Positions 42,290 through 62,472 are shown, numbered from the stretch's first letter. The stretch: 64,000 bases of DNA from an uncultured Myxococcales bacterium (GCA_964540815.1 CAZIOH010000007.1:43867-107866); one strand, 5' to 3'. The notes: a model not told the origin generated them from the letters alone. Made by a program: numbers and translations.

Positions 42290-42350
42290 TCGTCAACTTT
42301 GCCCGCCATTTGGCTGAATCCGGCCAGGAGATTGGACCGATCTGGCGGGC
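42290..42350. repeat. Dispersed repeat element, copy C (3' half), abutting the truncated SDR gene
   Basis: ctttgcccgccatttggctgaatccggccaggagattggaccgatctggcggg matches copy A 22910-22968. Confidence 0.5.
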
Positions 42351-44167: not shown

Positions 44168-44176
44168 GCCGACGCG

Positions 44177-45946: not shown

Positions 45947-46732
45947 TCACTTGAAGAACGCAATGTCATCGATCCAGACGTCGAAGACGGGCGCCGCCGC
46001 GGGGATGCCGAACTCGACATTGGTCACATTGGCCACGTCGAGCGTGGGCCGCGGCAGACCAAAGCTGCGTTGCCCGAGCTGGCCGAAGTTAAAGGTGAAG
46101 CGCTGCCAGGCCGCGGTCAGCGTCAATGTGCTCCCGAAGTCGTCGTAGCACGCGGTGGGACCAGAGGTGAGGGTCTTGTCGCAGTGACCGCCGGCTGGGT
46201 TGGAGTACTGATCGCCGATGCCGAAGCGGACCGAACCGACGGACGTCTCGCCCTTGCGGGCCCAGAAGGTGATCCCCCGCGCGGCCGTGGCGTCATACGG
46301 CGTATCGACGTATTCGCCGCCAATCATGGCGACCCTGAAGCTGAAGCCGAAACCCGAGCCCCAGTCCGAAAAGCCGCTGCCGGTGACCCGCATCGCGCGC
46401 TTGCTGGTTCCGCAGCGCGGCTCGGGGATTGGCTCCATCGGAAACATCGTCTCGGGCGCCGGGTTGAGCGTTCCCGCGGTCATATCGTCATACGTGTACC
46501 AGATGGACACCCGACCATCCTTTGCCAGGATGAACTGATCGCCGTCCTCCATGTCGTCGATGTAGTCGAGCAGGCCAGGGTCGGGGACGGAACACAGCGG
46601 ATCGAGCTTCACCTCGGTGCTCGAGCCACCCCCGCATCCGCCCAAGGCCGTCGCAACCAGCACCGCGCCCACGGGAAACCAGAACCAAGGCAATGAAGTG
46701 GGCGACGGTGATGACGTATGTCCATGCATGGC
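45947..46732 (-). CDS. Lipoprotein with CBM-like beta-sandwich domain (paralog family with 56477..57337)
   Basis: Lipobox ATALGGCGG. Conserved GGHCDKTLTSGPTACYDDF and C-terminal PVFDVWIDDIAFFK (compare GGRCDPTATDNPRTACYDSF and LTFDIWIDDLYFVPR). Confidence 0.6.
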   Translation of the reverse strand, partial: AMHGHTSSPSPTSLPWFWFPVGAVLVATALGGCGGGSSTEVKLDPLCSVPDPGLLDYIDDMEDGDQFILAKDGRVSIWYTYDDMTAGTLNPAPETMFPMEPIPEPRCGTSKRAMRVTGSGFSDWGSGFGFSFRVAMIGGEYVDTPYDATAARGITFWARKGETSVGSVRFGIGDQYSNPAGGHCDKTLTSGPTACYDDFGSTLTLTAAWQRFTFNFGQLGQRSFGLPRPTLDVANVTNVEFGIPAAAPVFDVWIDDIAFFK

Positions 46733-46855
46733 GTTCCTCGCGGGTTGGTGAGTGTCTTTCCCAGCTGCTTCTTCGCGCACGGCGCGGGCGTCGGCGGCCG
46801 GCGCAATGGAATCATTCTCACTGCTTCTGGTTCACATCAGAGCGCTCGAGCCGGG

Positions 46856-48217
46856 TCAGGCGAAGCCCGACAGCGGCCCGGTGCACCATTCGGCCTTCCC
46901 GAAGGTCGTCGCCGGAATGTCCATGGCCTGCAGGATCGAGACCAGCAGGTTGTTGTGAGGGGGATCGCCGGTGAACGATAGAAAGCGACCGGTGCGCACG
47001 GCACCCCCGGCCTGACCGGCGAGCACGTAAGGGGCCAGCTTGCGGCTGTGGTTGTTTCCCTTGCCGAGCTCGTTGCACCAGAAGACCAGCGACGCGTCCA
47101 GGAGCCGGCTGCCGTCGACCTCCTGCGCGCCGGCCAGCTTGCCGACCAGGGCGGCGAAGCGCTCGGCATACCAGTGGTTGATGCGGGTCAGCTTGTCGAC
47201 CGCCTGCGCGTCGTCGTCGGGCAGGTGTGACAGATCGTGGTGAACGTCCGTGATCGGTTGCGGAAGCCAGGTGAAGCGGGTCTGCGACACCGAGCGCGAC
47301 CATTGCAGCGACGCCACGCGCGTCAGGTCGCACGCGAGCGCAACCACCAGCAGATCGATCTGCAGATCTCCGATTGCTGGAAAGTCGTCATTCGTGCCCC
47401 CGCCCCCGGCGGGCAAGGAGGGCGCGCCGGGATCGCGGCAGGACGGACTCGGCACGGCGAGTGAGTCGAGGCGCGTCTCGATGTCGCGAACGATGGTGGC
47501 ATGCGCGTCCAGGCGCACCCGATCGGCCGCTCCGACCCGCGCCCTGACCGCTTGAAACTGGCCGAGCACGGCGTCGAGGACGCTCCTCCGTCGTGCACGC
47601 AGGCGCGCCAGGTCCTCGGCCGAGGCCCCCCCCGCCGCGCCAAACAGCCGGGCATACGCCCGCTCGGGGCTCTCTTCGGGCGGGACCGGCTGATCGGGAC
47701 CAACGTAGCTCATGCGACCCCAGTTGTCCGCGGCCCCAACCTGAACTCCCAGCTCCAAGGAACGCAGACGGGTCCCGGACCCGAGCGTCGCCGCCACCTG
47801 CTGATCGACCGAGATTCCGTTGGCCCAACCCGAGGCGCCCGCGCTCGCTCCCCCCTGGAACGGGCCCGGATTGAGGCTCTGGCCGGTCAGCATGCCGCCG
47901 ATCCCGTTCTGGTGACCGTCGCCGCCGCCGCCCTGCTGAAAGAGGCCCGAGACCACCAGCAGGTCGGCTTGAAGAGCGCCGAGGGGATCGAGGATCGGCG
48001 CCAGCGCGAAGTCGGTCTCGGTACCCGAGGGAACCCAGTTCGGGAAGATGGTGCCGTTCGGGGTGAAGACCACCACGAATCGCTTGGGAATCACGGTCGC
48101 GGCCCGCGCGTGGCCGGGGTCCATCGCCTCGAGCAAGGGGAGCGTGAAGGCGGCGCCCGCCGTGCGCAGAACCGCGCGGCGGGAAAGGAGCGGACGACCT
48201 GTCTTGATGACGATCAT
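46856..48217 (-). CDS. DUF1552-family protein with Tat signal (second copy)
   Basis: MIVIKTGRPLLSRRAVLRTAGAAFTLPLLEA. Homologous throughout to 17233..18816. ATG overlaps the upstream stop (48214-48217). Confidence 0.8.
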   Translation of the reverse strand: MIVIKTGRPLLSRRAVLRTAGAAFTLPLLEAMDPGHARAATVIPKRFVVVFTPNGTIFPNWVPSGTETDFALAPILDPLGALQADLLVVSGLFQQGGGGDGHQNGIGGMLTGQSLNPGPFQGGASAGASGWANGISVDQQVAATLGSGTRLRSLELGVQVGAADNWGRMSYVGPDQPVPPEESPERAYARLFGAAGGASAEDLARLRARRRSVLDAVLGQFQAVRARVGAADRVRLDAHATIVRDIETRLDSLAVPSPSCRDPGAPSLPAGGGGTNDDFPAIGDLQIDLLVVALACDLTRVASLQWSRSVSQTRFTWLPQPITDVHHDLSHLPDDDAQAVDKLTRINHWYAERFAALVGKLAGAQEVDGSRLLDASLVFWCNELGKGNNHSRKLAPYVLAGQAGGAVRTGRFLSFTGDPPHNNLLVSILQAMDIPATTFGKAEWCTGPLSGFA

Positions 48218-49893
48218 GGCGCGATGACCTCCGGGGCTCGTCGATATCGAAAGGCGTCGGTCTGGGTCAGGGCGACCATCAGCTCGCGAACGTCGCCACC
48301 CTTGGCGGAGGCGGCGTCCATCAACGCTCCGAGCGTGCAGGAGTCAGCGGCGGTCTCGGCGCGGCCGTAGCCGAAACGGAACCACTGCGTGACGTAGCAG
48401 CGCTGAACTTCCGGGCTGGCCGCCAGGCGGTCGGCGAGCTCGACCGCGCCGTCGAACGGCCCGTCCGAGTCGGTGCCGGTCAAGGCGCCGTGGGCGTCGA
48501 TGGTCAGCCCCGACTCGGTTGTTCGCCAATGGCCGAGGCCGTCGTAGTGCTCGAACCCGAAGCCGATCGGATCCAGCATGGTGTGACAGGTGGCGCAGAA
48601 CGGGTCGGCGGTGTGCGCGGCGAATCGCTGGCGGGTCGTCTGGCGCGGATCGAGGGCGGGGGGCCGAATCTCGACGTTGCTCGGCGGCGGCGGTGGCGTC
48701 GTGCAAAAGAGCTGCTCGCGAACGAACCGTCCTCGGTGGACCGGCGAGCTCTGATTTGCCTTCGCGTAGACCGCCAAGATGGATGCCTGGGTGAGGAGGC
48801 CGGCCCGGTTGGTGGACCCGAGGCCCACCTGGACCAGGTCGCCGCCGCCGGGGTAGGCCACGCCATAGAAGTCCGCCAGGGTGCTGTCCACGAAGGTGTA
48901 TCGCGCCGACAGCAACGCCGAAAGCGTCCCCTCGTGGTTCCAGATGACCTCGTCGATGAATCGCGCAGTCTCGGCTCGAAACGCATCCCGCAGCGAAGGC
49001 GAATACGCGGGATAGACCACGCGATCCTTGTCCAGCTGATCGAGGCGATCGAGGCCCAGCCAGCCGGCGTGAAACGCCGCCGTGACCTCGTGGGCGCGCG
49101 CGTCGCCGAGCAACCTTCGCGCCTCCCGCTCGAGATCCTCAGGAAGCGTCAGTCGGTCCTCGGCGGCCGCCGCCAGCAGGGCGTCGTCGGGCGTCGAGCC
49201 CCACATGAGATACGACAGGCGCGTCGCCAACTCGTGGGACGAGAGCGGAACCGCACCCGGGAGATCGGAGGCTGCGCCATTGCCGAGCTCGATCCGGTAC
49301 AGGAACTGCGGACTCTCGAACAGGACCTGGACCACACGCCCGATCCCCTCGGTGAAGCCACCGTCGTTCTGCCCGGCGACAAAGACGGTCTGGAGCGCCG
49401 CGGTCTCATCCGATTCCAACGGACGGCGCCAGACGCGACCACCGAAGGCACCAATGAAGCTGTCGGCACATCGGCTGTCCGGGGAGGTCGTCGCGCACGG
49501 AAGAAACCGACCGAGGTCCTGGAGCATCACCGACGATGCCTGCTCCGCGAGAGCCACCGTTTGCTCCACCAGGAGATCGCTGGTTCCGAGGACGTCGGCG
49601 TTGTTGTCGAAGCCGAGCGCCTGCTCGTCGGGGGGAAGTCCCGATGTGTCGACCAGCCCCGGCCCCAGGAGATCGCGGAGCGTTCGCCCGTACTCCGCGC
49701 GCGTCAGTCGGCGCAGCGGCGACGGACCCGAGTCGCGCGATGCGCAGAGCGGGGCCGCGCGTCCGCCAACGCGCGGTGGGGGCGAGTCGGCGTGGCTCCG
49801 GCAGCCAGTCCATGTCGCCGTGACCAGTCCCGCGAGGCCGAGCAACGACACACACGACCTCACGTGGGGTGTCTGGATGGCCATCGTCGTCAT
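48214..49893 (-). CDS. DUF1592/DUF1588-family lipoprotein with CxxCH motif (second copy)
   Basis: GGGAGG Shine-Dalgarno before ATG 49893. Lipobox TATWTGC. ...DPFCATCHTMLDPIGFGFEHYD. Homologous to 18813..20672. Confidence 0.75.
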   Translation of the reverse strand: MTTMAIQTPHVRSCVSLLGLAGLVTATWTGCRSHADSPPPRVGGRAAPLCASRDSGPSPLRRLTRAEYGRTLRDLLGPGLVDTSGLPPDEQALGFDNNADVLGTSDLLVEQTVALAEQASSVMLQDLGRFLPCATTSPDSRCADSFIGAFGGRVWRRPLESDETAALQTVFVAGQNDGGFTEGIGRVVQVLFESPQFLYRIELGNGAASDLPGAVPLSSHELATRLSYLMWGSTPDDALLAAAAEDRLTLPEDLEREARRLLGDARAHEVTAAFHAGWLGLDRLDQLDKDRVVYPAYSPSLRDAFRAETARFIDEVIWNHEGTLSALLSARYTFVDSTLADFYGVAYPGGGDLVQVGLGSTNRAGLLTQASILAVYAKANQSSPVHRGRFVREQLFCTTPPPPPSNVEIRPPALDPRQTTRQRFAAHTADPFCATCHTMLDPIGFGFEHYDGLGHWRTTESGLTIDAHGALTGTDSDGPFDGAVELADRLAASPEVQRCYVTQWFRFGYGRAETAADSCTLGALMDAASAKGGDVRELMVALTQTDAFRYRRAPEVIAP

Positions 49894-50235
49894 GTCCCGA
49901 TCCTCCCTTCCCGCGTCGTTCGCTCCTGCGGTCGTATCCGACGCGGCGACCCGCGGTGCCAAGGAAGGAGAGCAACAGCCGTGCCGGACGGATTCGGTCC
50001 CGGAAGGGTGATCCACCGCGGCGTAGTCGCAGGATTGCGGCGCGAAGCCATGGATCCGGACGTCCGCGCGACGTCCAGCGGACGTACGCGGCGATCCCTC
50101 GGGTGTGGGGAGTCCATCGATCTCGGCATAGGGGAAAGGGTCTGCGCGGGAACACCTCCGAGCACCGTTGCAAAATGTGGCTCCTTCCGTCCAATTCCGC
50201 GGATCCCGCAGGCGTGATATGGATCGTCTGTTGCC

Positions 50236-51660
50236 ATGGGCTCAGATGTGGGGAACACGACGGTTGCGGCAACGAGCGGCGAGGCGCGAGGCATCACGGC
50301 GCCGGATCTGGCGCTGGTGTGGCTCTTTCCCCGACCATCCGAATCGGCGGTGAGTCTCCGCTGGGAGGGACCGGAGGAACGGGTCATCGGCCGGGAAGAG
50401 GGATGTGCGATTCGCCTGCTCGGGAGCGACGTCTCCCGCCGCCACGCCACGCTGCGAAGGACCGGGCCTGAGTTCGGCACCGAGCTCGTGGATCTCGGCA
50501 GCCGCAACGGCATCCACGTCAACGGCTGCCAGGTATCGGCCGCGTATCTCAAGGGCGGGGACGTCGTTCGCCTGGGGGGCTGGATCGGCGTGGTGACGGA
50601 TACGCCGGGAGTCTTCAAGGAGATCGCGCCCGGGTTGCTGGGAGGGGCGGCGCTCCAGGCCGCGCTCGCTCCCTTCGGGCGCGCGGCGGCGAGCGATCTG
50701 CCCATCGTCATCGAGGGCGAGACTGGCACCGGCAAGGAGGTCGTCGCGCGCGGTATCCACCAATGGAGCGGGCGGGCGGGACCCTTCGTCGGGGTCAACT
50801 GCGCCGCCCTACCAGAGGCCCTCGCCGAGGGTGAGCTGTTCGGGTACCGGCGTGGCGCCTTCACGGGCGCGGACAAGGCGAGCCCAGGATTTTTTCGCAG
50901 CGCCGACCGCGGGACGTTGTTGCTCGACGAGGTGACGGATCTCCCTGCGGCCCTGCAAGCAAAACTGTTGCGCGTGCTCGAGGAGCGCGAGGTCCAGCCC
51001 CTTGGAGAGGCGCGGCCGGTCCCGATCGACGTCCGCGTCGTGGCGGCCGGCCAGGTCTCGCTGCTTGAAGCGTCCCGCCAGGGTCGTTTCCGACCCGATC
51101 TGCTGGCCCGACTCGACGGCGTCACGGTCAAGCTGCCTCCGTTGCGCAGCCGGCGCGAGGACGTGCCGCCGTTGTTTTCACATTTCCTGGCGGAGCTGGG
51201 TCAAGGCCATGCGCCCGCCGTGGATGGTGACCTCGTCGAGCGGCTGTGTCTGCACGACTGGCCTTTCAATGTTCGCGAACTGCTCCTGCTGGCTCGCCGC
51301 CTGGTGGTGCTGCACGGCGGGGAATCCACCCTCCGGGCACTCCACCTGCCGGATCGAATGAGCGGGCGGCCCGGGCCACGGACTCCGACCGATGGCGTCC
51401 AGGCGAAGTCCTCGCCCGCCAGCCCGCCGGCGGCGGCCGCATCCACGGCTCCCGCCGAGCCCGTGGAGCTTCCGGCGCTCGTCACCGCCCTGCGCGCGTC
51501 GAGCGGGAACGTCGCCCGCGCGGCGGCAATGCTCGGCATCACGCGACAGCGGGCGTATCGACTGATGGACGGTAAGGCCATCGATCTCGAGGGGCTGCGC
51601 GGTCAAGAGCCAGCGCCCGAACACGGTCAAGGGCAAGAACCGAAGGCGGGTGGGCGATGA
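50236..51660 (+). CDS. Sigma-54-dependent transcriptional activator with N-terminal FHA domain (FHA, AAA+ sigma54-interaction, Fis-type HTH)
   Basis: FHA core RVIGREEGCAIRLLGSDVSRRHATL...GSRNGIHVNG. Walker A GETGTGKE. GAFTGA motif. C-terminal HTH ARAAAMLGITRQRAYRLM. Confidence 0.85.
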   Translation: MGSDVGNTTVAATSGEARGITAPDLALVWLFPRPSESAVSLRWEGPEERVIGREEGCAIRLLGSDVSRRHATLRRTGPEFGTELVDLGSRNGIHVNGCQVSAAYLKGGDVVRLGGWIGVVTDTPGVFKEIAPGLLGGAALQAALAPFGRAAASDLPIVIEGETGTGKEVVARGIHQWSGRAGPFVGVNCAALPEALAEGELFGYRRGAFTGADKASPGFFRSADRGTLLLDEVTDLPAALQAKLLRVLEEREVQPLGEARPVPIDVRVVAAGQVSLLEASRQGRFRPDLLARLDGVTVKLPPLRSRREDVPPLFSHFLAELGQGHAPAVDGDLVERLCLHDWPFNVRELLLLARRLVVLHGGESTLRALHLPDRMSGRPGPRTPTDGVQAKSSPASPPAAAASTAPAEPVELPALVTALRASSGNVARAAAMLGITRQRAYRLMDGKAIDLEGLRGQEPAPEHGQGQEPKAGGR

Positions 51661-54503
51661 ATGCCATGCCCCAGACCACGCGGGTCGGCGAGTTCATCGG
51701 GGGCAAGTACCGCATCGTGCGCGTGCTCGCCGAGGGCGGCATGGGGGTCGTCTACGAGGCCCAGCACGCGGTGGTCAAGCGCCGCTTCGCGGTCAAGTTC
51801 CTGCGCCCCGATCTGGCCCACCAGCGTGGCCTTCTGAGCCGCTTTTACCGTGAGGCCCAGGCCGCCGGCGCGCTCGAGAGCGAGAACATCGCCGCCACCA
51901 TCGACTTCGGCATCCTGAGCGACGGCACGCCCTACATCGTCATGGAGTACCTGACCGGTGAGAGCCTGCGTGCGCTGCTCGAGCGCGAAGGCCGCCTGGC
52001 GCCCGCGCGGGCGGCCGACCTCTGTGTGCAGGCCTGTCGCGGGATGGAGGCGGCGCACGCGTCGGGCATCATCCACCGCGATCTCAAACCCGAGAACCTG
52101 TTCCTGTGCCGGCGCGACGATGGAACCGACCTGCTCAAGATCCTCGATTTCGGCATCGCGAAGCTCGAGCAGATCGAGACCAACAACGCCGCCACGCGCA
52201 CCGGAGCGATCTTGGGAACCCCCGCGTACATGTCCCCCGAGCAGGCCCGGGGCGAAAAGACCATCGATCACCGGACCGACGTCTACGGCCTGGCCGGGAT
52301 CCTGTTCGAGATGCTCTCGGGAAAGCATCCGCATCCAGGCGATTCGCACAATGCGATCTTGCACCACATCTCGACGCAGCCGGCGGTGCCGCTTCATTCC
52401 GTGCAACCCGACCTCCCCGCTCCGCTGGCGACTGCCGTCGAGCACGCCCTGGCATCGGATCCGGCGAATCGACATGCGTCGGTCGAGGCCTTCACGCGGG
52501 AGATCGCCCCGTTCGCGCGACGACAGGTGTGGCCACCCGCGAAGGACACCGGCGGGGCTTCAGGTGTGAGCGTCACCTCGTCGACTCCCGGTGTGCGGCC
52601 GGCAAGCGGGGTGGCGCCAGGCGGCGTGGCCCAGGCTTCCACCGGACCGCTCGACCGAGGCGGGTCAGCGGTCATCGCAGGCCCAAGGCCGCGTCCACCG
52701 CTGCGGCTGCGGCCGGTCATGGTCGGTGCTGGACTTCTGGCCGCGGTGGTCGCGACGGCGATCGGGATCAGCCTGCGCCTCCACCGCCGGCCGGATCCGG
52801 GGAAGACCGCGGACGGGGCCGGGGGCAAGGAGACGGTTCGAACCTCGCACGATCGGGTGCAGCGGACCGTGGGCGATCGGACGCTGCCCAAGGAGGCCCG
52901 ATTCTTCGTGCCCGCCACGATGCCCGGCGCCGTTCAGCAAATCGCGACCTTGATCAAGCAGAAGGCGTTCCTGGACGCCGCCCCGCTCACGGCGATGCAG
53001 GCGACGCCGCAAGGCATATGGCTGGCCGGCGGAACGCCCGACGAGGTCCGGGCCGCCGTAGGAAACGTCATCGTTCGCGCCGCGCCCGACCAGCGGGTTC
53101 CGGTCCTGGTGGCGAACAACATCCCATTCCGCGACTGCGCGCAGTACTCCGCCGGTGGCGCGACGAATGCCGCTGAGTACAAGGCGTGGATCGACGGGTT
53201 CGCAAGCGGGATAGGCAATGGCCGGGCGGTGGTCATCCTCGAGCCCGATAGCCTGGGCATCATTCCCTATAACACCACGATCTCCGGCGAGTCCGACTGG
53301 TGCAAACCGACGATCGCGGACGCGCAGGGCCGGACGATCCCGGCGCCGGGAGCCACGCCCAGCGAGCGCTACGCCCTGATCAATGACGCGGTGGACAGCA
53401 TCGTCGCCAGGGCGCCGAACGCATCCGTGTACCTGGATGGCACGCACGCCGGTTGGCTGAGCGTGGGGGAGATTGCGAGCCACCTGGTCAAGGCCGGAGT
53501 CCGTCGTGCGCAAGGATTCTTCGTCAACGTGGCGAACTTTCAGCCCACGCCGCAGTCGATTGAATATGCGACCTGGATTTCGAAGTGCATTCACTACGCC
53601 AGCAACCCGGCGGAACGGGGCCGCCGGTTGGGGCGGTACGGCGACTGCGCTAGCCAATATGGGCCCACGGGCCCGAAGCCCTACGACGAGTGGGCCGAGA
53701 CCGAGAAGTGGTACGTCGACAACGTCGACCGGGCGCCCAACCCGCCATCCGGGCCATCGGCGCTGACCCACTTCGTGATCGACACCAGCCGGAATGGCCG
53801 CGGCCCGATGGATGCCGCTCGCTTCGCTGCGGCTCCGTATGACCAACCGGCGGACGTCATCAAGGGTCTGGCGAGCGGCAACTGGTGTAACCCGCCGGAC
53901 ACCGGTCTCGGGTTGCGTCCCACGGCGAATACCGGCGTCGCGCTCGTCGACGCATATCTGTGGGTGAAGGTCCCAGGTGGCTCCGACGGATCGTGCGACA
54001 TCGCGGGTGGAGCTCGCGCATGGGACTACGCCCGGTACAACCCCTGGGGCATGGAGGGGGATGCGCAGAAACACTTCGATCCGCTGTGGGGAGCGGTCGA
54101 TCCCGGCGCCGGCGAGTGGCTGGCCGAGTATGCCTTGCAACTGGCGCGGAACGCGAACCCACCCCTGCAGGCTCCCGGGCCGATCACCGTCCTGCAGGCC
54201 CCGAGGGGCGGCAGCGAGGTCGACCAGGGCGGCCATCGCCGCGAGGTCCGCGCACGCCAGACTCGCTCCTCCTCGGCTTCCGACACGCGCGGCTTGGAGC
54301 CACCGACTGGCGGCGCCCCCGGTATCCTTGCGCAGGCCCCGTCCGGACGTCCAGCCGGACGTCCGGACGGACGTGCCGAAGGGCATCCGGCACTCCCCGC
54401 CGCGCTCACGGAAACCCCTGAGCACGCGCCGACGACGGCCCGTGTGCCCGAGCCGCGCGCACCCCGGATCACCTTCGACCCGAACAACCCGTACGGTGAC
54501 TGA
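51657..54503 (+). CDS. Membrane Ser/Thr protein kinase with extracellular glycoside hydrolase family 6 (GH6)-like domain
   Basis: Kinase motifs (GGMGVVYEA, HRDLKPENLFL, DFGIAKL, GTPAYMSPE). TM VMVGAGLLAAVVATAIGISL. GH6 signatures VLVANNIPFRDCAQYSAGGA and VVILEPDSLGI. ATGA overlap with the activator gene. Confidence 0.8.
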   Translation: MNAMPQTTRVGEFIGGKYRIVRVLAEGGMGVVYEAQHAVVKRRFAVKFLRPDLAHQRGLLSRFYREAQAAGALESENIAATIDFGILSDGTPYIVMEYLTGESLRALLEREGRLAPARAADLCVQACRGMEAAHASGIIHRDLKPENLFLCRRDDGTDLLKILDFGIAKLEQIETNNAATRTGAILGTPAYMSPEQARGEKTIDHRTDVYGLAGILFEMLSGKHPHPGDSHNAILHHISTQPAVPLHSVQPDLPAPLATAVEHALASDPANRHASVEAFTREIAPFARRQVWPPAKDTGGASGVSVTSSTPGVRPASGVAPGGVAQASTGPLDRGGSAVIAGPRPRPPLRLRPVMVGAGLLAAVVATAIGISLRLHRRPDPGKTADGAGGKETVRTSHDRVQRTVGDRTLPKEARFFVPATMPGAVQQIATLIKQKAFLDAAPLTAMQATPQGIWLAGGTPDEVRAAVGNVIVRAAPDQRVPVLVANNIPFRDCAQYSAGGATNAAEYKAWIDGFASGIGNGRAVVILEPDSLGIIPYNTTISGESDWCKPTIADAQGRTIPAPGATPSERYALINDAVDSIVARAPNASVYLDGTHAGWLSVGEIASHLVKAGVRRAQGFFVNVANFQPTPQSIEYATWISKCIHYASNPAERGRRLGRYGDCASQYGPTGPKPYDEWAETEKWYVDNVDRAPNPPSGPSALTHFVIDTSRNGRGPMDAARFAAAPYDQPADVIKGLASGNWCNPPDTGLGLRPTANTGVALVDAYLWVKVPGGSDGSCDIAGGARAWDYARYNPWGMEGDAQKHFDPLWGAVDPGAGEWLAEYALQLARNANPPLQAPGPITVLQAPRGGSEVDQGGHRREVRARQTRSSSASDTRGLEPPTGGAPGILAQAPSGRPAGRPDGRAEGHPALPAALTETPEHAPTTARVPEPRAPRITFDPNNPYGD

Positions 54504-54504
54504 C

Positions 54505-55698
54505 ATGGCACGCGATCTGCTGGCTCGGCCCAAGAGCATGCGTGTTCCGTGGCTTACATGGATCGGGTTGTTCCTGCTCGCCTCGACCCCCGTCCTCGCC
54601 GAGACCACGGTCGCAAGGCAGGCCGACGACCCAGGGTCGGCTCCGCGAGGAGGCGGGGCTCCGCCCGAAGAAGCGTCCCAAGAAGCCCGCGAGGCGGCGC
54701 GCGGGCATTTCGCCCAGGGACTGGAGCGCGCAGGCCAGGCTGACTACGAGGGTGCCCTCCGCGAATTCACCGAGGCCTACGCGCTGAGCGCGCATTTCGC
54801 CGTCCTGTACAACATCGGCCAGGCCCAGATCGCTCTCGGCCACCCACTGGAGGCCGTCGAGACCTTGTCGAAGTACCTGCGCGATGGTCAAGAACAGGTT
54901 CCATCCGACCGCCGCTTGCAGGTGCAGGCTCAGGTCGAGCTCCTGCAGTTCCTCTTTGCCGAGCTGACCGTCACGACCGACCGCCCTGGGGCCCTGATCT
55001 TCATCGATGGTCGCGAGGTCGGCCGCACCCCCCTCTACCAGTCCGTTCGCTTGCCCGCCGGGACGCACACGGTGTCCGCCGTGGTGCAAGGGATGGCCCC
55101 GATCGTTCGCAGCGTGACCATCGCGCATGGGGAACGCCAGGTTGTGAACCTGGCGATGCCCGCCACCCCCGCGGTGGCGGCCAAGGACACGGGTGCACCT
55201 GCACCCGCACAGACGCCCGCACCCGCGTCCGGGGCTGGTAAAGCCACGGAGGGGCGCGCTCGCTCCGAGCCCGATCTCACGCTGGGAACGCCCAGCAGTG
55301 GGCGCACCCTGCCGGCGTTGGCGTACGCCGCCGTCGGAATTGGCGTGGCGCTGGGGGGGGCGGCGCTCGCGGTGTATCTCGGCAACCGAGGACGCTACCA
55401 GGACTGGGAAGCCAGCAACGCGGCACTCGAGAACGACAAGGGCGCCATCGACCATTACGCCCAGCAGACCGCCAACAATCGGCTCGCGGATTCACTCACG
55501 CGGGACAACCACCTCGTCGCCGGGCTCTCCATTGCCGGCGGTGCGTTGGTGGCGGGCGGGCTGACCTTCTTGATCCACGACCGGTTGCGAGGTGGGAGAG
55601 AAGGGGCTCGCGCGGACGACTCGACTGGCGCGTTCGGCCTGACCTGGGCCCAGCAAGGATCGGCGTCGGGCGCCATTTCTTGGAGCAAGCGGTGGTAG
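54505..55698 (+). CDS. Secreted TPR-like plus PEGA-domain protein with C-terminal TM segment (paralog of 36729..37883)
   Basis: Signal MRVPWLTWIGLFLLASTPVLA. PEGA PGALIFIDGREVGRTPLYQSVRLPAGTHTVSAVV. TM LAYAAVGIGVALGGAALAVYL. Starts 1 nt after the kinase stop. Confidence 0.65.
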   Translation: MARDLLARPKSMRVPWLTWIGLFLLASTPVLAETTVARQADDPGSAPRGGGAPPEEASQEAREAARGHFAQGLERAGQADYEGALREFTEAYALSAHFAVLYNIGQAQIALGHPLEAVETLSKYLRDGQEQVPSDRRLQVQAQVELLQFLFAELTVTTDRPGALIFIDGREVGRTPLYQSVRLPAGTHTVSAVVQGMAPIVRSVTIAHGERQVVNLAMPATPAVAAKDTGAPAPAQTPAPASGAGKATEGRARSEPDLTLGTPSSGRTLPALAYAAVGIGVALGGAALAVYLGNRGRYQDWEASNAALENDKGAIDHYAQQTANNRLADSLTRDNHLVAGLSIAGGALVAGGLTFLIHDRLRGGREGARADDSTGAFGLTWAQQGSASGAISWSKRW

Positions 55699-56477
55699 CC
55701 GGCTACGCGGACGGGCAGGGTGCGCGAGCGAGCGCGGGCGTGTCGGCGAGCGCGACCGCGACCGCGGCCGCGACGACATGGGGGATGGGCGCGATCCTGT
55801 CGGCCCTGGCGCTCTCGGCCTGTTTCGACGTGCAGAAGATCGATCCGGGCAAGGAAGCCTTTGTCATCTCCGACTTCGAGCAGGGCCAGGCCGTCGCGAA
55901 CAGCGCCCTGTTCGATCGATGGTTTTGTATCACCTTCAATCCGCAGCTCGGCCAGGATCCCGGTCAGACGGTGACCTGCGCCGTGGAGGACTACCCGGGC
56001 GACCAGAGCCAGTTCGGCTTGATGGCCACGTTCGCGCTCCACAACGGACTCCCCGACGCCCAGTACGCGGGCGCGACCTTGATGACGATCGCAGATGACG
56101 CGGCGGTCGATTTCAACGGCTTTCAGTATCTCTCCTTCAAGCTGAGGGTGGAGTTTGGCGGGCCCCCGCCGCCCACGGCGCAGGTGGATGTGCAGCTCGG
56201 CTGTAACTCCGTCGCGGGTCAGGACACGAATGACCATCAAGAGTACTTCGACCTGTTCCACCTGATCGCAGCGACCCCCACCTGGTCGACGTTTCAACTC
56301 CCACTTTCTTCGTTCATGCAACGCATGGACGAGACAAACCTTTTCAAAGGTGGGCCCAAGGCGTGTCTCGGGCTGGTTGACAGTGTTCGTTTTGAAGTCA
56401 ACGCACTCTTGATGCAGGGCCAGTCGGCAAGCGGCACGCTTCATATCGACGATGTGCGCCTGGAGGGCCCCGTCTAA
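55680..56477 (+). CDS. Lipoprotein with CBM-like beta-sandwich domain
   Basis: Lipobox ILSALALSAC. C-terminal SGTLHIDDVRLEGPV. Start uncertain (55680 or ATG at 55785). Confidence 0.5.
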   Translation: MEQAVVAGYADGQGARASAGVSASATATAAATTWGMGAILSALALSACFDVQKIDPGKEAFVISDFEQGQAVANSALFDRWFCITFNPQLGQDPGQTVTCAVEDYPGDQSQFGLMATFALHNGLPDAQYAGATLMTIADDAAVDFNGFQYLSFKLRVEFGGPPPPTAQVDVQLGCNSVAGQDTNDHQEYFDLFHLIAATPTWSTFQLPLSSFMQRMDETNLFKGGPKACLGLVDSVRFEVNALLMQGQSASGTLHIDDVRLEGPV

Positions 56478-57337
56478 TGACGCCCAGACGGTCTTGCCTC
56501 GAGATCGAGAAGCCGCTCACCCCGCCGTCTTCCGTGGTGGTGATGGTCTGTGTGCTGACCGGGGTCTCGGCCTGCTCGAGTGGTGCGCCAGAGACCGGCT
56601 ACACTCTCATCGATGACATGGAGGGCACGAGCGGCATCATCGAATGGACTGCCCTGGTCGGAAGCCCGGGCAGCTGGGACTCTTTTTCGGACCAGCCGGG
56701 CAGCGTTCTGCCGTTGCCACGAGACGAGGGGGGCGTGTGGTCTCAGGATCTGGTGCCAGCTCCGTACCAGACCCGGCCCGGGATCACGAGCACGCATGCA
56801 GCCCGCCTTCGAACCACGACTCCACTCGTCAACCAATGGGGGGCCGCGATGGGTTTCGACTTCGCGGACCTCCCGACCTTACCGACTTCCTCGACATCCA
56901 CGGGGCATTCGACGATGTCGGCGGTGGGCGTCGACTTGACGGCGTTCCGGGGCATCTCTCTGTGGGCAATGGCGTCTGGCACCGGCACGACGACCGTTGA
57001 CCTAGAGGTCGACGATTCGAATACCCACCCGAGCGGCGGGCGTTGCGACCCGACGGCGACCGACAACCCCCGAACCGCCTGCTACGACTCGTTCAGCTTC
57101 CCGCTCGACCTCACGGGCACGTTCACGCGGTACACCATCGACTTCTCCCAGTTGAAGCAGGCCGCGTTCGGCCATCAGACGATGCCGAGCGTGCTGACCC
57201 AGGACAACGTGTACGGAATGTCGTTCGCCGTCCGTCCCCCCGGCGGCTTCTGCCCGCCCACCACGATGTGCGCAGGAGCACTCCCGACGTTGACGTTCGA
57301 CATCTGGATCGACGATCTGTACTTCGTCCCCAGGTGA
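56477..57337 (+). CDS. Lipoprotein with CBM-like beta-sandwich domain (paralog of 45947..46732)
   Basis: Lipobox VLTGVSAC. GGRCDPTATDNPRTACYDSF. C-terminal LTFDIWIDDLYFVPR. Confidence 0.6.
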   Translation: MTPRRSCLEIEKPLTPPSSVVVMVCVLTGVSACSSGAPETGYTLIDDMEGTSGIIEWTALVGSPGSWDSFSDQPGSVLPLPRDEGGVWSQDLVPAPYQTRPGITSTHAARLRTTTPLVNQWGAAMGFDFADLPTLPTSSTSTGHSTMSAVGVDLTAFRGISLWAMASGTGTTTVDLEVDDSNTHPSGGRCDPTATDNPRTACYDSFSFPLDLTGTFTRYTIDFSQLKQAAFGHQTMPSVLTQDNVYGMSFAVRPPGGFCPPTTMCAGALPTLTFDIWIDDLYFVPR

Positions 57338-57828
57338 GGCGCCCTCCGAATACCCATTCCTTCCGTGGCCTCGACGGCGGATCATGGCCGCTGTTTCGCG
57401 GGAGGAGGCTTTCGGGGTGTGCGGCGGCGTGGCCGTCGCACCACGCGGATCCGTCCGCTTCCCAGCCCGGTCGCAAGTGCATCACCATTGCCGCCAGCAC
57501 TTGGTCAATGCCCACCCGCCACAGGGGGCGCAGAAGATCCGTCGCCCACATGACCTGATCGGCCAGCGTCGAGACGGCCAGGCTCGTGCCCATCCGCTCA
57601 AAGCGCCCCTTCTGCCGATGCAACGGCAGGCCATCGTCGTACTTGTCGACCACCAGGGATCGAAATCTCCTGAGCCTGCGCCTGAGCAGGATACATCCCC
57701 ACGCCGCGCGCCGGGCCAGCGCCAGAAGTCTGCGCGGGCCCACGCCCCTTGATCGTGGGGCGCAGGCAGAGACTCTGGGCCGGACCGGCGCTCGGGACCT
57801 CGCATTTTCGCGGCCCTGGATCACGCCA

Positions 57829-59271
57829 TCAAGGCAGCAGCGGAGGATTTGCGTTCCGCGCGAGCTGTAGCGCCTGCTCCGGGAACCACGCGCCGGCCGC
57901 CGGGTCGACCAGCCCCCACAACGGGTCAAAGTGGATTTGTGCGTCGCCCGTGAGGGCCCAGGGGTTGTAGACCGAGAAGTCCCAGGCGCGCGCCCCGCCC
58001 GCGATGTCGCATGATCCGTCGGATCCAGCCGGAGTCTTCACCCAAAGAACCGCGTCTTCGAGCGGAACGCCCGTGTTCGCTGACGGTCGCAGGCCCAAGC
58101 CGGCACCAAAGGCGTTGCACCAGCTTCCCGCGTTCAGCCCGGCGATGACGTTCGCCGGCTGGCTGAAAGGCGGGGCCACGAACGGCGCCGTGTCGAGGAC
58201 ACCCTGACCATTGCGGCCGGTGTCGATGACGAAGTGAGACAGCGCCGCCGGTCCCGCTGGCGGATTGGCCGCATTGTCGACGTTGTCCGCGTACCACTGA
58301 TCGGTCAGCCCCCATGTTGAAAAATCGGTGGGCGTGGCCGGAAAGTATTGGCTGGCGCAGTAGTCGTAGTGACCAAGCCGCCAACCGCCTTCCGCGGCAT
58401 TGCTCGCATAGTAAATGCACTTCGAGATCCAGGCGCCGTACTTTGTCAGCTGCGCCGTCGGCTGGTAATTCGACACGTTGACGAACAGTCCCTTGGCGCG
58501 CTGGACGCCCGCCTTGACCAGGCGAGAGGCGGCCTCCCCGACGGGAAGCCAGCTGCTGTGCGTGCCGTCGAGATACACCGAGGCGTTGGGCGCGCTGCCG
58601 TTGATGCTGTCGACGGCGTGGTTCATCTGCGCGTACCGTTCGGTCGGATTCGCGCCCGGGGCGGGAACTAAATTGCCCGAAGCATCCGTCACCGTGGGCT
58701 TGCACCAGTCGGCTTGACCGTCGATGGTCGTGTTGTAAGGGATGATGCCCAGACCGTCGGGCTCGAGGATGACCAGAGCCCTTCCGGAGCCAATGCCTTG
58801 GGCGAAGCCGTCGATCCAGGCGTCGTAGGCGGCCGTGTCGGCCGCGCCTCCTCCTGAGTACTGCGCGCAGTCACGGAAAGGGACGTTGTACGCGACCAGG
58901 ATGGGGACACGGTGTGCCCGTGCGGCGTGCGCCATCGTATCGTGCACGGCGGCCTCGACCTCGGCGGGCGTGCCTCCATTGAACCACACGGCTTGTGGCG
59001 TCGCTTCCATCGCGAACAACCGCGAGGCGTCGCGAAAGTGCCGGCCCTTTACCAGATCCTCGATCTGGGCAACGGCCGCGGGAGCGGCCGGCGGAACGTA
59101 AAAGCGCGTGTTCGCCGCCGGATCTCCGGCGCACGGAGCTTGTGCCTCGAGCGCTGCCTCCGTGACGGTCGCCTCCGGCTCCGTGCCCGGCCCCGATGGA
59201 TCCCCCGCGCACCCCAGCAGGATCAGCATTTCACACACACAGACACTCCCAACCAACATCTGCTTCTTCAT
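57829..59271 (-). CDS. Glycoside hydrolase family 6 lipoprotein (paralog of the kinase-fused GH6 domain)
   Basis: MKKQMLVGSVCVCEMLILLGCAG lipobox. ILVAYNVPFRDCAQYSGGGA and LVILEPDGLGI GH6 signatures. Collinear with residues 400-900 of 51657..54503. Confidence 0.8.
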   Translation of the reverse strand: MKKQMLVGSVCVCEMLILLGCAGDPSGPGTEPEATVTEAALEAQAPCAGDPAANTRFYVPPAAPAAVAQIEDLVKGRHFRDASRLFAMEATPQAVWFNGGTPAEVEAAVHDTMAHAARAHRVPILVAYNVPFRDCAQYSGGGAADTAAYDAWIDGFAQGIGSGRALVILEPDGLGIIPYNTTIDGQADWCKPTVTDASGNLVPAPGANPTERYAQMNHAVDSINGSAPNASVYLDGTHSSWLPVGEAASRLVKAGVQRAKGLFVNVSNYQPTAQLTKYGAWISKCIYYASNAAEGGWRLGHYDYCASQYFPATPTDFSTWGLTDQWYADNVDNAANPPAGPAALSHFVIDTGRNGQGVLDTAPFVAPPFSQPANVIAGLNAGSWCNAFGAGLGLRPSANTGVPLEDAVLWVKTPAGSDGSCDIAGGARAWDFSVYNPWALTGDAQIHFDPLWGLVDPAAGAWFPEQALQLARNANPPLLP

Positions 59272-60349
59272 TGTTTCCCATCCCTCTCTTGGTTTGACGC
59301 GGCACCCGTCGAATGTGAACAAACCCGATCCTTCGACGGATTGCTTCCGCCGCGGCGGCCCACGATGACGATGGCCATAGCAACCGCCGCGCCAGCGACG
59401 ACCGACAAAGACAGCGGCCGAGTCCGGGCACCGTCGAGCGTGAGGAGCCGTAATGTCGCGGAATGGTCGGCGTCCATGTTGGGCTGGTCATCGCGGACGC
59501 CGGGACCGGACGTCCGCGAGATGTCCGCGGTCGCTCGTCGGCAGCGTGCGCGTGGCCTGAGCGGCTTCAGGCGTGCGCGCAACAGGAGCTCGACGTGTCC
59601 GGCCAGGATAGGGTCATGTCTCATCCCGAGGCCCACGGGCCGGATGACGGGGGCGCCCCCATCGCTTCGTGGTCGCAAGCGGCCCACCGCTCGCCGTGGC
59701 GATCCGCCATGTCCATCGAACGACGAACGCCGCGTCCCGGGCATCGAGGTCAGCGAGAGCTGTGACCGACACAAATGTTTTCACTCCTGCTCGACCGCTG
59801 AATGGCACGATATGGGAATGTGATCCCGTACCCGGCGGTAGCCGGGGCTCCGGCCGTTCCCATGCGGGCAGGAACATGACCGGCCAAGGACTGCGCCCGC
59901 TGGCAGAAGCGGATTGGAGGTCCCCTTTTTAGGCCGACTGCCACCGTCTATGTTGCCGTCCGAAAGGCCTTCCGAAGCCGGCCCAGGCCACGCCGCGGGC
60001 CTCCTAACTCGCCCCACGGCTCGGACCTGTCCGCTCGGAATCACGAGGTCGACGCCCGCGCCCAGGGGGATCTCCGAAGATGGTGTCGACCCGGCTGTGA
60101 GGCACCCCGTGCCGCACGAGGACTCAGCGACGTTGATCTGCCTCGCACTCTACCTGCGACCCGATGGGTCGGCTGGATCGATTGTGAAAGATCGGCGGCG
60201 ATGAGTCCTGTGATCCTGGCGCCGAGACTCAATAATCTCTTGGGGACAATGGCCTTGAGATGCGTCCCCTGGATAGCGTTAGCGTGTTGCAGAGCAGGTG
60301 CGCTGGCAGGTCCGCTCGCCGTCCATCTGGGCGTCGAGTTTACCCTCGC

Positions 60350-62118: not shown

Positions 62119-62472
62119 TCACCTGGTCGGGACGAGTCCAAGGAAGAGCTCCAACCCCTGATCGATGGAGATGAGTTCATCGGATGTGAGGCCGCCGAAA
62201 ACGCGGCGAATACGCCGCTTGTCGATTGACCGGAGCTGGTCGATCAGCGCGTACGAAACCTTCGTCAGGCCGCTCTTGCCGGGGGTCAGCATTGGATAAA
62301 GGGCCCCCTCCCCGGCCGTTCCAGTTACCGGCACCACCGCTATCAATGGAAAGCGCTGGTCGATGTTCACCGCAGAATCGCTCACCGTGATGCAAGGCCG
62401 GACGCCTCGCTGCTCGTGACCCACGGTGGGATCGAGCTCGACCAGAACGACCGTACCTCGACCCAAGTTCAC
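62119..62472 (-). CDS. MazF/PemK-family endoribonuclease toxin
   Basis: GTVVLVELDPTVGHEQRGVRPCITVS...IAVVPVTG...SYALIDQLRSIDKRRI. GTG start overlaps the antitoxin stop (TAGTG). Confidence 0.7.
   Translation of the reverse strand: MNLGRGTVVLVELDPTVGHEQRGVRPCITVSDSAVNIDQRFPLIAVVPVTGTAGEGALYPMLTPGKSGLTKVSYALIDQLRSIDKRRIRRVFGGLTSDELISIDQGLELFLGLVPTR

What the first reader, a model, noticed from the sequence alone, without database searches (positions are those of the whole stretch)
54505..59271. Glucan-related gene neighbourhood: paralogous GH6 lipoprotein and CBM-like lipoproteins immediately downstream of the kinase
Downstream of the kinase lie a PEGA/TPR membrane protein and two CBM-like lipoproteins (55680..56477, 56477..57337). 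A convergent stand-alone GH6 lipoprotein (57829..59271) is collinear with the kinase ectodomain. This is the arrangement expected if a secreted enzyme was duplicated and captured as a sensor domain (enzyme-to-receptor exaptation). The lipoproteins may be co-regulated targets or co-receptors.
Basis: inference. Interest (0 to 1): 0.55.

Follow-up and report, generated by a model that had tools for sequence, protein, structure and literature searches.

The report
Glucanase-domain kinase with its sigma-54 regulon
In an uncultured soil myxobacterium, a membrane kinase carrying a copy of a glucan-cutting enzyme sits beside the activator, predicted enhancers and sigma-54 promoters that appear to switch on the free enzyme and three sugar-binding-like lipoproteins, a sugar-sensing circuit not found described in the literature searched but testable.

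Summary

The region is part of a larger unit conserved in at least 15 uncultured Polyangia genomes: FHA/sigma-54 activator, Hanks kinase, PEGA protein, lipoproteins, GH6.

A palindromic decamer, CGGACGTCCG, occurs exactly three times in the 64 kb. Each copy lies 70-140 bp upstream of one of the only three strong sigma-54 promoter matches. These precede the PEGA-lipoprotein operon, the free GH6, and a divergent operon ending in a third CBM11-like lipoprotein. The pairing holds for 37 of 40 sites across loci (background 7%), so co-regulation is well supported, though only by prediction.

The exaptation story needs revising:
- Fused and free GH6 form sister clades with moderate support, but the split is old.
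- Most orthologous kinases lack GH6. They keep only a disordered tail ending in FDPxNPY.
- Half of the fused domains, including this one (N487), have lost the otherwise invariant ring-distorting tyrosine.

Verdict: a new variant of known kinds, with no experimental test yet.

The parts
50236..51660 (+). FHA-domain sigma-54 enhancer-binding protein (474 aa), the predicted output regulator
   Evidence: Pfam FHA 2.6e-14, Sigma54_activat 2.9e-55, AAA_lid_14, HTH_8. GAFTGA, Walker A GETGTGKE and FHA GR...SxxH...NG residues are visible in the translation.
51657..54503 (+). Hanks Ser/Thr kinase (948 aa). Kinase domain is aa 18-273, TM about aa 354-375, periplasmic GH6 domain aa 415-837 (nt 52899-54167), disordered tail aa 838-948 ending ITFDPNNPYGD.
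   Evidence: Pfam Pkinase 9.6e-41 and Glyco_hydro_6 5e-58. HRDLKPEN and DFG are present. N487 aligns with TfCel6A Y73; D493, D531, D594 and D777 are retained.
54344..54377 (.). Predicted enhancer (UAS) for the PEGA operon. Three 12-bp-spaced copies of CGGACGTCCG (1, 0 and 2 mismatches) lie inside the kinase tail coding sequence, where they encode GRPAGRPDGR.
   Evidence: Conserved in L001, L013, L002, L014, L016 and L022.
54506..54521 (+). Sigma-54 -24/-12 promoter-like site, TGGCACGCGATCTGCT, immediately after the kinase stop codon
   Evidence: One of only 3 sites with at most 1 mismatch in 64 kb. Conserved position in 7 aligned loci.
54505..55698 (+). Secreted PEGA protein with a weak TPR-like N-terminal region and a C-terminal membrane anchor. 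The start used on sigma-54 transcripts is probably 54538.
   Evidence: PEGA 3.2e-11, TPR_19 below cut-off. Signal peptide MRVPWLTWIGLFLLASTPVLA. Conserved ATG/GTG about 17 nt after the -12 box. Always follows tail-type kinases.
55680..56477 (+). Lipoprotein 1, CBM11-like beta-sandwich (start uncertain; lipobox Cys codon at 55821)
56477..57337 (+). Lipoprotein 2, CBM11-like beta-sandwich
57829..59271 (-). Free GH6 lipoprotein (480 aa) with a complete active-site set (Y128, D134, S139, D172, D235, D418)
   Evidence: Glyco_hydro_6 7.9e-57. 67% identical to the kinase ectodomain with no gaps. Active-site columns. Closest solved structures are M. tuberculosis CelA1 and T. fusca Cel6A.
59379..59394 (-). 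Sigma-54 promoter-like site, TGGCGCGGCGGTTGCT, 108 bp upstream of the free GH6 start
   Evidence: Conserved as TGGCGCGTCCATTGCT in L001 and L013 and TGGCCCGTTCGTTGCT in L002.
59494..59516 (.). Predicted enhancer for the free GH6: exact CGGACGTCCG at 59507-59516 plus a degenerate neighbouring copy
   Evidence: An 88.6% identical 35-bp block occurs in L001 and L013. Alignment.
50057..50088 (.). Predicted enhancer in the divergent intergenic region: CGGACGTCCG and CGGACGTACG, 22 bp apart
49971..49986 (-). Sigma-54 promoter-like site, CGGCACGGCTGTTGCT, 78 bp upstream of the PSCyt/PSD gene
   Evidence: L035 (another MAG) has the decamer plus a -24/-12-like site before a PSCyt-DUF1552 pair.
45947..49893 (-). 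Divergent operon: PSD/PSCyt protein (48214-49893), DUF1552/HXXSHH protein (46856-48217) and a third lipoprotein (45947-46780) that is a paralogue of lipoprotein 2
   Evidence: Pfam hits. Lipoprotein 2 paralogue found by phmmer, E 7e-17. Translation shows lipobox LGGC and IDDMEDG...FDVWIDDIAFFK.

Best explanation
The region is the output half of a compact signalling unit specific to Polyangia.

1. A membrane Hanks kinase has a periplasmic part made of a GH6 domain plus a disordered tail ending in FDPNNPYGD.
2. It signals through phospho-threonine to the FHA domain of the adjacent sigma-54 activator (inferred).
3. The activator assembles on repeats of the palindrome CGGACGTCCG (inferred from sequence co-occurrence).
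4. It fires three sigma-54 promoters (predicted). These drive (i) the PEGA protein plus two CBM11-like lipoproteins, (ii) the free, catalytically complete GH6 lipoprotein, and (iii) a PSCyt/DUF1552 pair plus a third CBM11-like lipoprotein.

The kinase's GH6 domain is an old paralogue of the free enzyme. It keeps the catalytic aspartates but has Asn in place of the tyrosine that distorts the -1 sugar. It most likely acts as a beta-1,4-glycan or oligosaccharide binding sensor with weak or no hydrolysis (inferred). The free GH6 and the CBM-like lipoproteins would generate or capture the ligand, giving positive feedback.

Shown by computation: domain content, paralogy, folds, conserved synteny, conserved motif and promoter architecture. 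Inferred: phospho-relay, DNA binding, ligand, feedback.
For: Domains.

Paralogy: 67% identity, 423 aa, no gaps. Fused clade 80% and sister to the free clade at 75% in NJ with 200 bootstraps.

CBM11-like folds.

Synteny: EBP-kinase-PEGA-lipo1-lipo2-GH6 recurs in L001, L002, L013-L017, L021, L022, L025, L026 and L030.

Regulatory DNA:
- Exact CGGACGTCCG occurs 3 times in 64 kb against 0.38 expected.
- There are only 3 sigma-54 sites with at most 1 mismatch, and each lies 70-140 bp downstream of a decamer in the right orientation for a gene.
- 37 of 40 decamer clusters in the window plus 27 loci are followed by a -24/-12-like site within 260 bp, against a 7% background.
- Alignments show both elements conserved where the flanking DNA has diverged.
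- The same logic holds in the distant locus L012, which has three decamers, a promoter, a CBM-like protein and a GH6.

Sensor-like drift: the Tyr aligned with TfCel6A Y73 is invariant in 107 of 107 non-fused homologues, but the 23 scorable sequences of the fused set read Y11/N9/S2/F1. Ser498, the EPD Asp and a GW motif are also lost in some fused members. The Y73 column was verified against 1TML and the Y73S mutant entries 2BOE/F/G.

The fused domain is under purifying selection: 88% identity between window and L001, against 77% for the free enzyme on the same 142 columns.

Precedents: PknH-EmbR (PMC8636726), FHA-EBPs in M. xanthus (Jelsbak 2005, cited in PMC4320627), and GH/CBM sensor domains on anti-sigma and ECF proteins (PMC10766802).
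Against: - There are no expression, binding or phosphorylation data. Promoters and enhancers are consensus and conservation predictions only.
- Most orthologous module kinases lack GH6, so GH6 cannot be the core sensor of the module.
- All catalytic Asp residues are retained in the window's fused domain, so it may still be an enzyme.
- The ligand is unknown. No member of this long (about 423 aa) GH6 subfamily was identified as characterised, and a GH6 lipoprotein (CslZ) can also cut chitin and peptidoglycan (PMC9040799).
- The trees are NJ only. WIN_fused is barely closer to other fused domains than WIN_free is, so long-branch attraction cannot be excluded.
- The loci are related by descent, so the 37 of 40 count is not 40 independent trials.
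Confidence: 0.45

Rival explanations
1. The real sensor is the PEGA/TPR protein together with the CBM11-like lipoproteins. They act as co-receptors that engage the kinase's conserved periplasmic C-terminal peptide (FDPxNPY). The GH6 domain in the window's kinase is an add-on, either a tethered enzyme or an auxiliary binder, and not the primary input.
For: GH6-less kinases of about 470-490 aa, with only a TM segment, a disordered tail and FDPxNPY, are the majority form of the module. The terminal motif is conserved at protein level with synonymous third-position changes. Where the downstream gene was visible, kinases ending in the motif (10 loci plus the window) are followed by a PEGA protein, while tail-less L012 has none. 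TPR-like regions commonly bind terminal peptides (general knowledge).
Against: The TPR assignment is below the Pfam cut-off. No interaction prediction could be run. If these proteins are also the induced targets, the sensor would be made by its own output, which is possible as a feedback design but not demonstrated.
Confidence: 0.3
2. The unit monitors or remodels the cell's own envelope glycans (peptidoglycan strands or a secreted cellulose-like polymer) rather than sensing external cellulose as food. It would be an envelope or developmental circuit.
For: All components are periplasmic or lipid-anchored. No transporter or cytoplasmic catabolic genes are in the unit. The Streptomyces GH6 lipoprotein CslZ acts on the cell's own glycan and also cleaves peptidoglycan and chitin (PMC9040799). 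Hanks kinases that sense wall fragments are well known, for example PASTA kinases (PMC4632501).
Against: No glycan synthase is linked to the cluster in any locus examined. The best fold match of the lipoproteins, CBM11, binds beta-1,4 and mixed-linkage glucans (title of 1v0a; specificity from memory). GH6 enzymes are overwhelmingly cellulases.
Confidence: 0.2
3. The genes are merely neighbours. The decamer and the -24/-12 matches are GC-rich chance sequences, and the lipoproteins are unrelated to the kinase.
For: Window-wide, sigma-54 matches with up to 2 mismatches are not enriched (29 against 22 expected). Nor are decamer matches with up to 1 mismatch (9 against 10.8).
Against: Exact decamers are enriched (3 against 0.38). 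All three pair with the only three strong promoter matches. The pairing and the gene order are conserved across loci whose proteins are only 36-70% identical.
Confidence: 0.03

Closest known systems
PknH-EmbR of Mycobacterium tuberculosis (a transmembrane Hanks kinase with an extracellular sensor domain, next to an FHA-domain transcription activator that controls cell-wall glycan genes)
   Same: A membrane Ser/Thr kinase gene lies adjacent to an FHA-containing transcription activator, and the output is genes acting on glycans (PMC8636726). The kinase and FHA domains were confirmed here.
   Different: EmbR is a SARP/OmpR-type activator, not a sigma-54 AAA+ activator. The PknH ectodomain is not a glycoside hydrolase. 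Targets and organisms are unrelated.
FHA-domain sigma-54 enhancer-binding proteins of Myxococcus xanthus (Jelsbak, Givskov and Kaiser 2005, cited in PMC4320627)
   Same: Same activator architecture (FHA, AAA+ sigma-54 module, HTH) in a myxobacterium, proposed to be driven by Ser/Thr kinases.
   Different: As far as I recall, most of those EBPs have no assigned partner kinase, binding site or compact regulon. Here all three can be read from one locus. The organisms are uncultured Polyangia, not Myxococcus.
RsgI anti-sigma factors of Clostridium thermocellum, and ECF52/ECF53 proteins with predicted glycosyl-hydrolase or CBM ectodomains
   Same: A carbohydrate-active module sits on the outside of a transmembrane regulator and is used, or proposed, to sense polysaccharide and induce glycoside-hydrolase genes (PMC10766802).
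   Different: Signal transduction there works by anti-sigma release or proteolysis. Here it would run through a Hanks kinase, an FHA-EBP and sigma-54. No anti-sigma domain is present.
T. fusca Cel6A and M. tuberculosis CelA1 (GH6 endoglucanases), and Streptomyces CslZ (a GH6 lipoprotein)
   Same: GH6 fold and catalytic residues. CslZ is likewise a CBM-less, lipid-anchored GH6 (PMC9040799).
   Different: The domains here are about 423 aa, with three insertions relative to the roughly 290 aa solved endoglucanases. They belong to a subfamily shared with Actinobacteria, such as Acidothermus (56% identity), for which I identified no characterised member (not searched systematically).
CBM11 of C. 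thermocellum Lic26A-Cel5E (PDB 1v0a)
   Different: Sequence identity is only 12-18% and there is no Pfam CBM hit. They are stand-alone lipoproteins rather than modules of an enzyme. Ligand binding is untested.

Membership tests
Glycoside hydrolase family 6 (free lipoprotein 57829-59271) | Match to the Glyco_hydro_6 profile above the curated cut-off | tested here: met
   193.8 bits against a cut-off of 27.
Glycoside hydrolase family 6 (free lipoprotein 57829-59271) | Catalytic acid Asp (EPD, TfCel6A D117), Asp of RDC (D79) and ring-distorting Tyr (Y73) | tested here: met
   Y128, D134, D172, D235 and D418 are present. These columns are invariant in 107 non-fused homologues.
Glycoside hydrolase family 6 (kinase ectodomain, aa 415-837) | Profile match and catalytic Asp residues | tested here: met
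   197.7 bits. D493, D531, D594 and D777 are retained.
Glycoside hydrolase family 6 (kinase ectodomain, aa 415-837) | Conserved Tyr equivalent to TfCel6A Y73 / TrCel6A Y169 | tested here: not met
   N487 aligns with Y73 of 1TML and with Ser of the Y73S mutant entries 2BOE/F/G. The 23 scorable sequences of the fused set read Y11/N9/S2/F1.
Glycoside hydrolase family 6 (both copies) | Hydrolysis of beta-1,4-glycosidic bonds | not testable with these tools
   Needs enzyme assays.
Hanks-type Ser/Thr protein kinase | Pkinase profile match with an intact catalytic loop HRDLKPEN and a DFG motif | tested here: met
   140.3 bits. D142 and D164 motifs are present.
Bacterial sigma-54 enhancer-binding protein with an FHA input domain | Sigma54_activat AAA+ domain with a GAFTGA loop, a C-terminal HTH_8, and an N-terminal FHA with GR/SxxH/NG residues | tested here: met
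   Pfam hits. The motifs are readable.
Sigma-54 dependent promoter | -24 GG and -12 GC elements (TGGCAC-N5-TTGCW) upstream of a gene, with an upstream activator site | tested here: met
   Three sites with at most 1 mismatch, each downstream of a CGGACGTCCG cluster and upstream of a gene, conserved across loci. Met at sequence level only.
Sigma-54 dependent promoter | Transcription that depends on sigma-54 and on the activator | not testable with these tools
   Needs transcription start mapping and mutants or in vitro transcription.
CBM family 11 (lipoproteins 1 and 2) | Sequence membership (profile match) | tested here: not met
   No Pfam family at E up to 0.01 and no NCBIfam family.
CBM family 11 (lipoproteins 1 and 2) | Beta-jelly-roll fold superposable on CBM11 | tested here: met
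CBM family 11 (lipoproteins 1 and 2) | Carbohydrate binding | not testable with these tools
   Needs binding assays.
Bacterial lipoprotein | Signal peptide ending in a lipobox [LVI][ASTVI][GAS]C | tested here: met
   LSAC (lipoprotein 1), VSAC (lipoprotein 2), LLGC (GH6) and LGGC (45947-46780), read from the translations. No dedicated predictor was run.
PEGA / TPR protein | PEGA domain above the cut-off; TPR repeats above the cut-off | tested here: inconclusive
   PEGA is met (43.4 bits against 20.8). TPR_19 scores 22.6 against 25, so it is not met. Orthologues carry only weak or faint TPR hits.
RsgI / ECF-type polysaccharide sensors | An anti-sigma or ECF sigma domain on the cytoplasmic side | tested here: not met
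   The cytoplasmic part is a protein kinase. This is an analogy of logic only.

The most novel reading that the evidence does not exclude
Polyangia possess a transmembrane glycan-sensing device not found described in the literature searched. The periplasmic C-terminal peptide (FDPxNPY) of a Hanks kinase is read by a PEGA/TPR protein and CBM11-like lipoproteins acting as co-receptors. The enhancer for their own operon is written into the codons of the kinase's disordered tail (GGACGTCC = Gly-Arg-Pro). In some lineages a glucanase paralogue that has lost its ring-distorting tyrosine has been inserted as a built-in substrate-trapping sensor. This would be a natural record of an enzyme turning into a receptor domain.
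Probability: 0.3. Interest if true: 0.75.

Novelty: new variant of a known kind. Interest (0 to 1): 0.55.

Why it matters
- Myxobacteria encode hundreds of Hanks kinases and dozens of sigma-54 activators, yet very few kinase-activator-target chains are known. Here a whole chain can be read from sequence: input domain, kinase, FHA activator, binding site, promoters and target genes. It is conserved in many soil genomes, which gives a concrete and testable model.
- A recent review lists hybrid two-component systems, ECF/anti-sigma systems and catabolite repression as the common routes controlling carbohydrate-active enzyme genes (PMC10766802). This locus adds a Hanks-kinase/sigma-54 route.
- It offers a graded natural series for studying how an enzyme becomes a sensor: the free enzyme, fused copies that keep the Tyr, fused copies that lost it, and kinases with no GH6 at all.
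- The enhancer embedded in coding sequence is a neat case of dual constraint on DNA.
- Limits: the organisms are uncultured and nothing has been tested experimentally.

Tried and rejected
- Direct similarity between the two lipoproteins: none by BLASTP. They are related only by fold.
- Pfam and NCBIfam naming of the lipoproteins, the 168-aa ORF 59268-59774 and the 122-aa ORF 57384-57752: no hits. The 168-aa ORF overlies the GH6 promoter and enhancer and is probably not a gene. The 122-aa ORF is unsupported.
- Sigma-70 promoter and intrinsic terminator scan of 57300-59900: nothing found.
- Recent local duplication of the free GH6 into the kinase: rejected by the identities (67% paralogue against 78-80% orthologues).
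- Shared indels that would prove a single fusion event: none seen in the alignment.
- Polarity of GH6 gain or loss from a kinase-domain NJ tree: not resolved. GH6-bearing kinases are scattered among GH6-less ones.
- Organism name: the cluster look-up gave no names. The closest named records are uncultured Polyangia, Polyangiaceae or Myxococcota MAGs.
- Function of the 710-aa ORF that follows lipoprotein 2 in L014: no Pfam hit.
- Gene downstream of the second GH6-kinase in L015: runs off the contig.
- Literature linking GH6 to Hanks kinases: none found in the library. Jelsbak 2005 could not be opened.

Full report
**What is there.** The window is about 68% G+C. Between 50.2 and 59.3 kb it encodes the following:
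- An FHA/sigma-54 activator (50236-51660).
- A 948-aa Hanks kinase (51657-54503). After one membrane helix it carries a Glyco_hydro_6 domain and a 110-aa low-complexity tail.
- A secreted PEGA protein (54505-55698).
- Two lipoproteins with no family assignment (55680-56477 and 56477-57337).
- On the other strand, a 480-aa GH6 lipoprotein (57829-59271).

Kinase residues 415-837 align with the free enzyme over 423 residues at 67% identity without a gap. The PEGA match is solid, but the TPR match is below Pfam's cut-off.

**Conserved neighbourhood.** The exact locus occurs on many metagenome contigs. More distant versions were found through lipoproteins 1 and 2 in metagenome contigs and in 24 MAG contigs, all from uncultured Polyangia, Polyangiaceae or Myxococcota. 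A context scan shows a recurring order: activator, kinase, PEGA, lipoprotein 1 (one or two copies), lipoprotein 2 (one to three copies), sometimes an unassigned ORF, then GH6. In L001, L002 and L013 the free GH6 is co-directional. DNA alignment shows that in the window the segment of about 57829-59536 is inverted. That segment carries the gene, its promoter and its upstream motif.

**Regulatory DNA.** Because the adjacent regulator is a sigma-54 activator, I searched for TGGCAC-N5-TTGCW. Only three sites in 64 kb have at most one mismatch:
- 54506-54521 (+), directly after the kinase stop codon.
- 59379-59394 (-), 108 bp before the GH6 start codon.
- 49971-49986 (-), 78 bp before a divergent PSCyt/PSD gene.

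Reading the upstream DNA revealed a palindromic decamer, CGGACGTCCG. It occurs exactly three times in the window, against 0.38 expected. Each copy has a degenerate neighbour and lies 70-140 bp upstream of one of the three promoters. The same pairing occurs in L001, L002, L012 and most MAG loci. Of 40 decamer clusters, 37 are followed within 260 bp by a -24/-12-like site, against a 7% background. Alignments show these two elements conserved while the surrounding non-coding DNA has diverged. The loci are related by descent, so this is evidence from conservation rather than 40 independent trials.

The predicted regulon in the window is three units:
- PEGA, lipoprotein 1 and lipoprotein 2.
- The free GH6.
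- PSCyt/PSD, DUF1552 and the third CBM-like lipoprotein.

In L035 the decamer and a weaker (2-mismatch) promoter-like site also precede a PSCyt-DUF1552 pair elsewhere in another genome.

**Two by-products of the regulatory analysis.**
- The enhancer of the PEGA operon lies inside the kinase's tail codons (GGA CGT CC = Gly-Arg-Pro). This explains the GRP repeats seen in many orthologues.
- The ATG at 54505, taken as the PEGA start, is formed by the -24 box. A conserved ATG/GTG lies about 17 nt after the -12 box (54538 in the window) and opens a normal signal peptide. Transcripts from the sigma-54 promoter would therefore have a very short leader.

**The kinase family.** Most kinases of this module are 470-490 aa. 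They consist of a kinase domain, one membrane helix and a periplasmic disordered tail of about 110-130 aa. The tail ends in a conserved motif, (T/R)FDPxNPY(R/GN/GD). Synonymous changes in the codons of this motif show it is selected as protein. The window kinase is this architecture with a GH6 domain inserted between the helix and the tail. L015 and L030 carry both a GH6-less kinase next to the activator and a second, GH6-bearing kinase nearby. L012 has a tail-less GH6 kinase followed by three decamers, a promoter, a CBM-like protein and a classical short GH6. An exhaustive search of 1.84 billion representative proteins found only about four clusters of kinase-GH6 fusions, so the fusion is rare.

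**Phylogeny.** I built an NJ tree of 131 GH6 domains (421 columns, 200 bootstraps).
- All fused domains form one clade (80%). The window's copy is its earliest branch.
- That clade is sister (75%) to a clade of 29 free lipoprotein GH6s that includes the window, L001 and L002 copies.
- Every fused-clade member with a visible N-terminal region shows a membrane helix or a kinase remnant, and none shows a lipobox. Five members are fragments that begin inside or just before the GH6 domain.

The split is old. The window's free GH6 is 78-80% identical to its orthologues, against 67% to its fused paralogue. The window's kinase domain is most similar (77-79%) to GH6-less kinases and only 67% identical to other GH6 kinases. 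No shared indel marks the fused clade. I therefore cannot distinguish one fusion followed by shuffling or losses from repeated capture. The trees are NJ only, and the fused clade is fast-evolving.

**Enzyme or sensor.** The columns aligned with TfCel6A D79, D117, D156 and D265 are kept in the window's fused domain. The tyrosine aligned with Y73 is Asn487. The alignment to 1TML, and to the crystallised Y73S mutant entries 2BOE/F/G, confirms the column. That tyrosine is invariant in all 107 non-fused homologues. Among the 23 scorable sequences of the fused set it is replaced in 12, which read Y11/N9/S2/F1. A serine, the catalytic acid and a GW motif are also lost in some members. Y73 is the residue credited with distorting the -1 sugar ring (Larsson et al. 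2005, title cited in PMC9040799 and PMC5968413). From memory, Y73S strongly lowers activity while the enzyme still binds substrate. The fused domain is not decaying: between the window and L001 it is 88% identical, against 77% for the free enzyme on the same columns. This pattern fits a glycan-binding sensor with reduced catalysis, but it is inference.

**Model and rivals.** The best-supported model runs as follows. Ligand, most likely beta-1,4-glucan oligomers, binds at the periplasmic face of the kinase. The activated kinase presents phospho-threonine to the FHA domain of the activator. The activator assembles on CGGACGTCCG repeats and drives three sigma-54 promoters. These raise the free GH6 and the CBM-like lipoproteins, closing a feedback loop.

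The main rival is that the PEGA protein and the lipoproteins are the actual sensors, acting through the FDPxNPY tail, with GH6 as an accessory. This fits the many GH6-less kinases. A second rival is that the unit surveys the cell's own envelope glycans, as the GH6 lipoprotein CslZ does in Streptomyces (PMC9040799). Chance adjacency is effectively excluded.

**Comparison with known systems.** The logic resembles three known systems:
- PknH-EmbR (PMC8636726).
- The FHA-type sigma-54 activators of M. xanthus (Jelsbak 2005, cited in PMC4320627).
- Anti-sigma and ECF regulators with glycoside-hydrolase or CBM ectodomains (PMC10766802).

It is a member of none of the last group, because its cytoplasmic part is a kinase. 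Library searches found no paper linking GH6 to a Hanks kinase. No NCBIfam model names any of these proteins above its cut-off. I rate it a new variant of known kinds, of moderate interest. The circuit is unusually complete and testable, but it rests entirely on prediction and comes from uncultured bacteria.

Noticed in passing
window 54468-54500; also L001, L002, L013-L017, L022, L025, L026, L030 kinase 3' ends: The kinase's periplasmic tail ends in a conserved peptide, (T/R)FDPxNPY(R/GN/GD)*. Third-codon positions vary while the peptide is kept. Its partner and function are unknown. Where the downstream gene was visible, kinases ending in this motif are followed by the PEGA protein.
   Followed up: partly
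window 54344-54377 and orthologous tails (L002 1233-1278 has four 12-bp repeats): The predicted enhancer lies inside coding sequence. The GGACGTCC repeats are read as Gly-Arg-Pro repeats in the kinase tail, so DNA-level constraint appears to dictate a protein repeat.
   Followed up: partly
window 57829-59536: The free GH6 with its promoter and enhancer is inverted relative to L001 and L013, where it is co-directional with the lipoproteins. The 490-bp spacer 57338-57828 has no counterpart in L001 or L013.
   Followed up: partly
window 17233-20672 (-): There is a second, paralogous PSCyt/PSD plus DUF1552 (HXXSHH) pair (phmmer E 8e-45 and 3e-16). No CGGACGTCCG decamer lies nearby.
   Followed up: no
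window 24436-25791 (-): Another Hanks-type kinase gene (kinase domain E 2e-32), unrelated to the module.
   Followed up: no
window about 26000-46000: G+C falls to 0.60-0.65 against 0.67-0.72 in the flanks. This may be a horizontally acquired or otherwise atypical segment.
   Followed up: no
window about 60600-61410 and 62119-62777: Gene calls on identical contigs (L006) show an alcohol dehydrogenase split into ADH_N and ADH_zinc_N pieces, possibly a pseudogene. They also show a PemK-family toxin with a small upstream ORF, likely a toxin-antitoxin pair.
   Followed up: no
L014 18623-20838: This MAG carries a second tandem copy of the unit: a GH6-less kinase with a variant terminus (..GNPYAKP), three decamers, a sigma-54 site and a PEGA gene, about 8 kb downstream of the first copy.
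   Followed up: no
P0039 and P0057 (contigs of about 420 kb): These GH6-plus-tail proteins are called without a kinase domain, although they group with kinase-fused GH6 domains. They could be split genes, mis-called starts or true kinase-less membrane forms.
   Followed up: no
window 59268-59774 (-) and 57384-57752 (+): These ORFs are called as genes on some identical metagenome contigs (L011) and have no family hits. The first overlies the GH6 promoter and enhancer and is probably spurious.
   Followed up: partly
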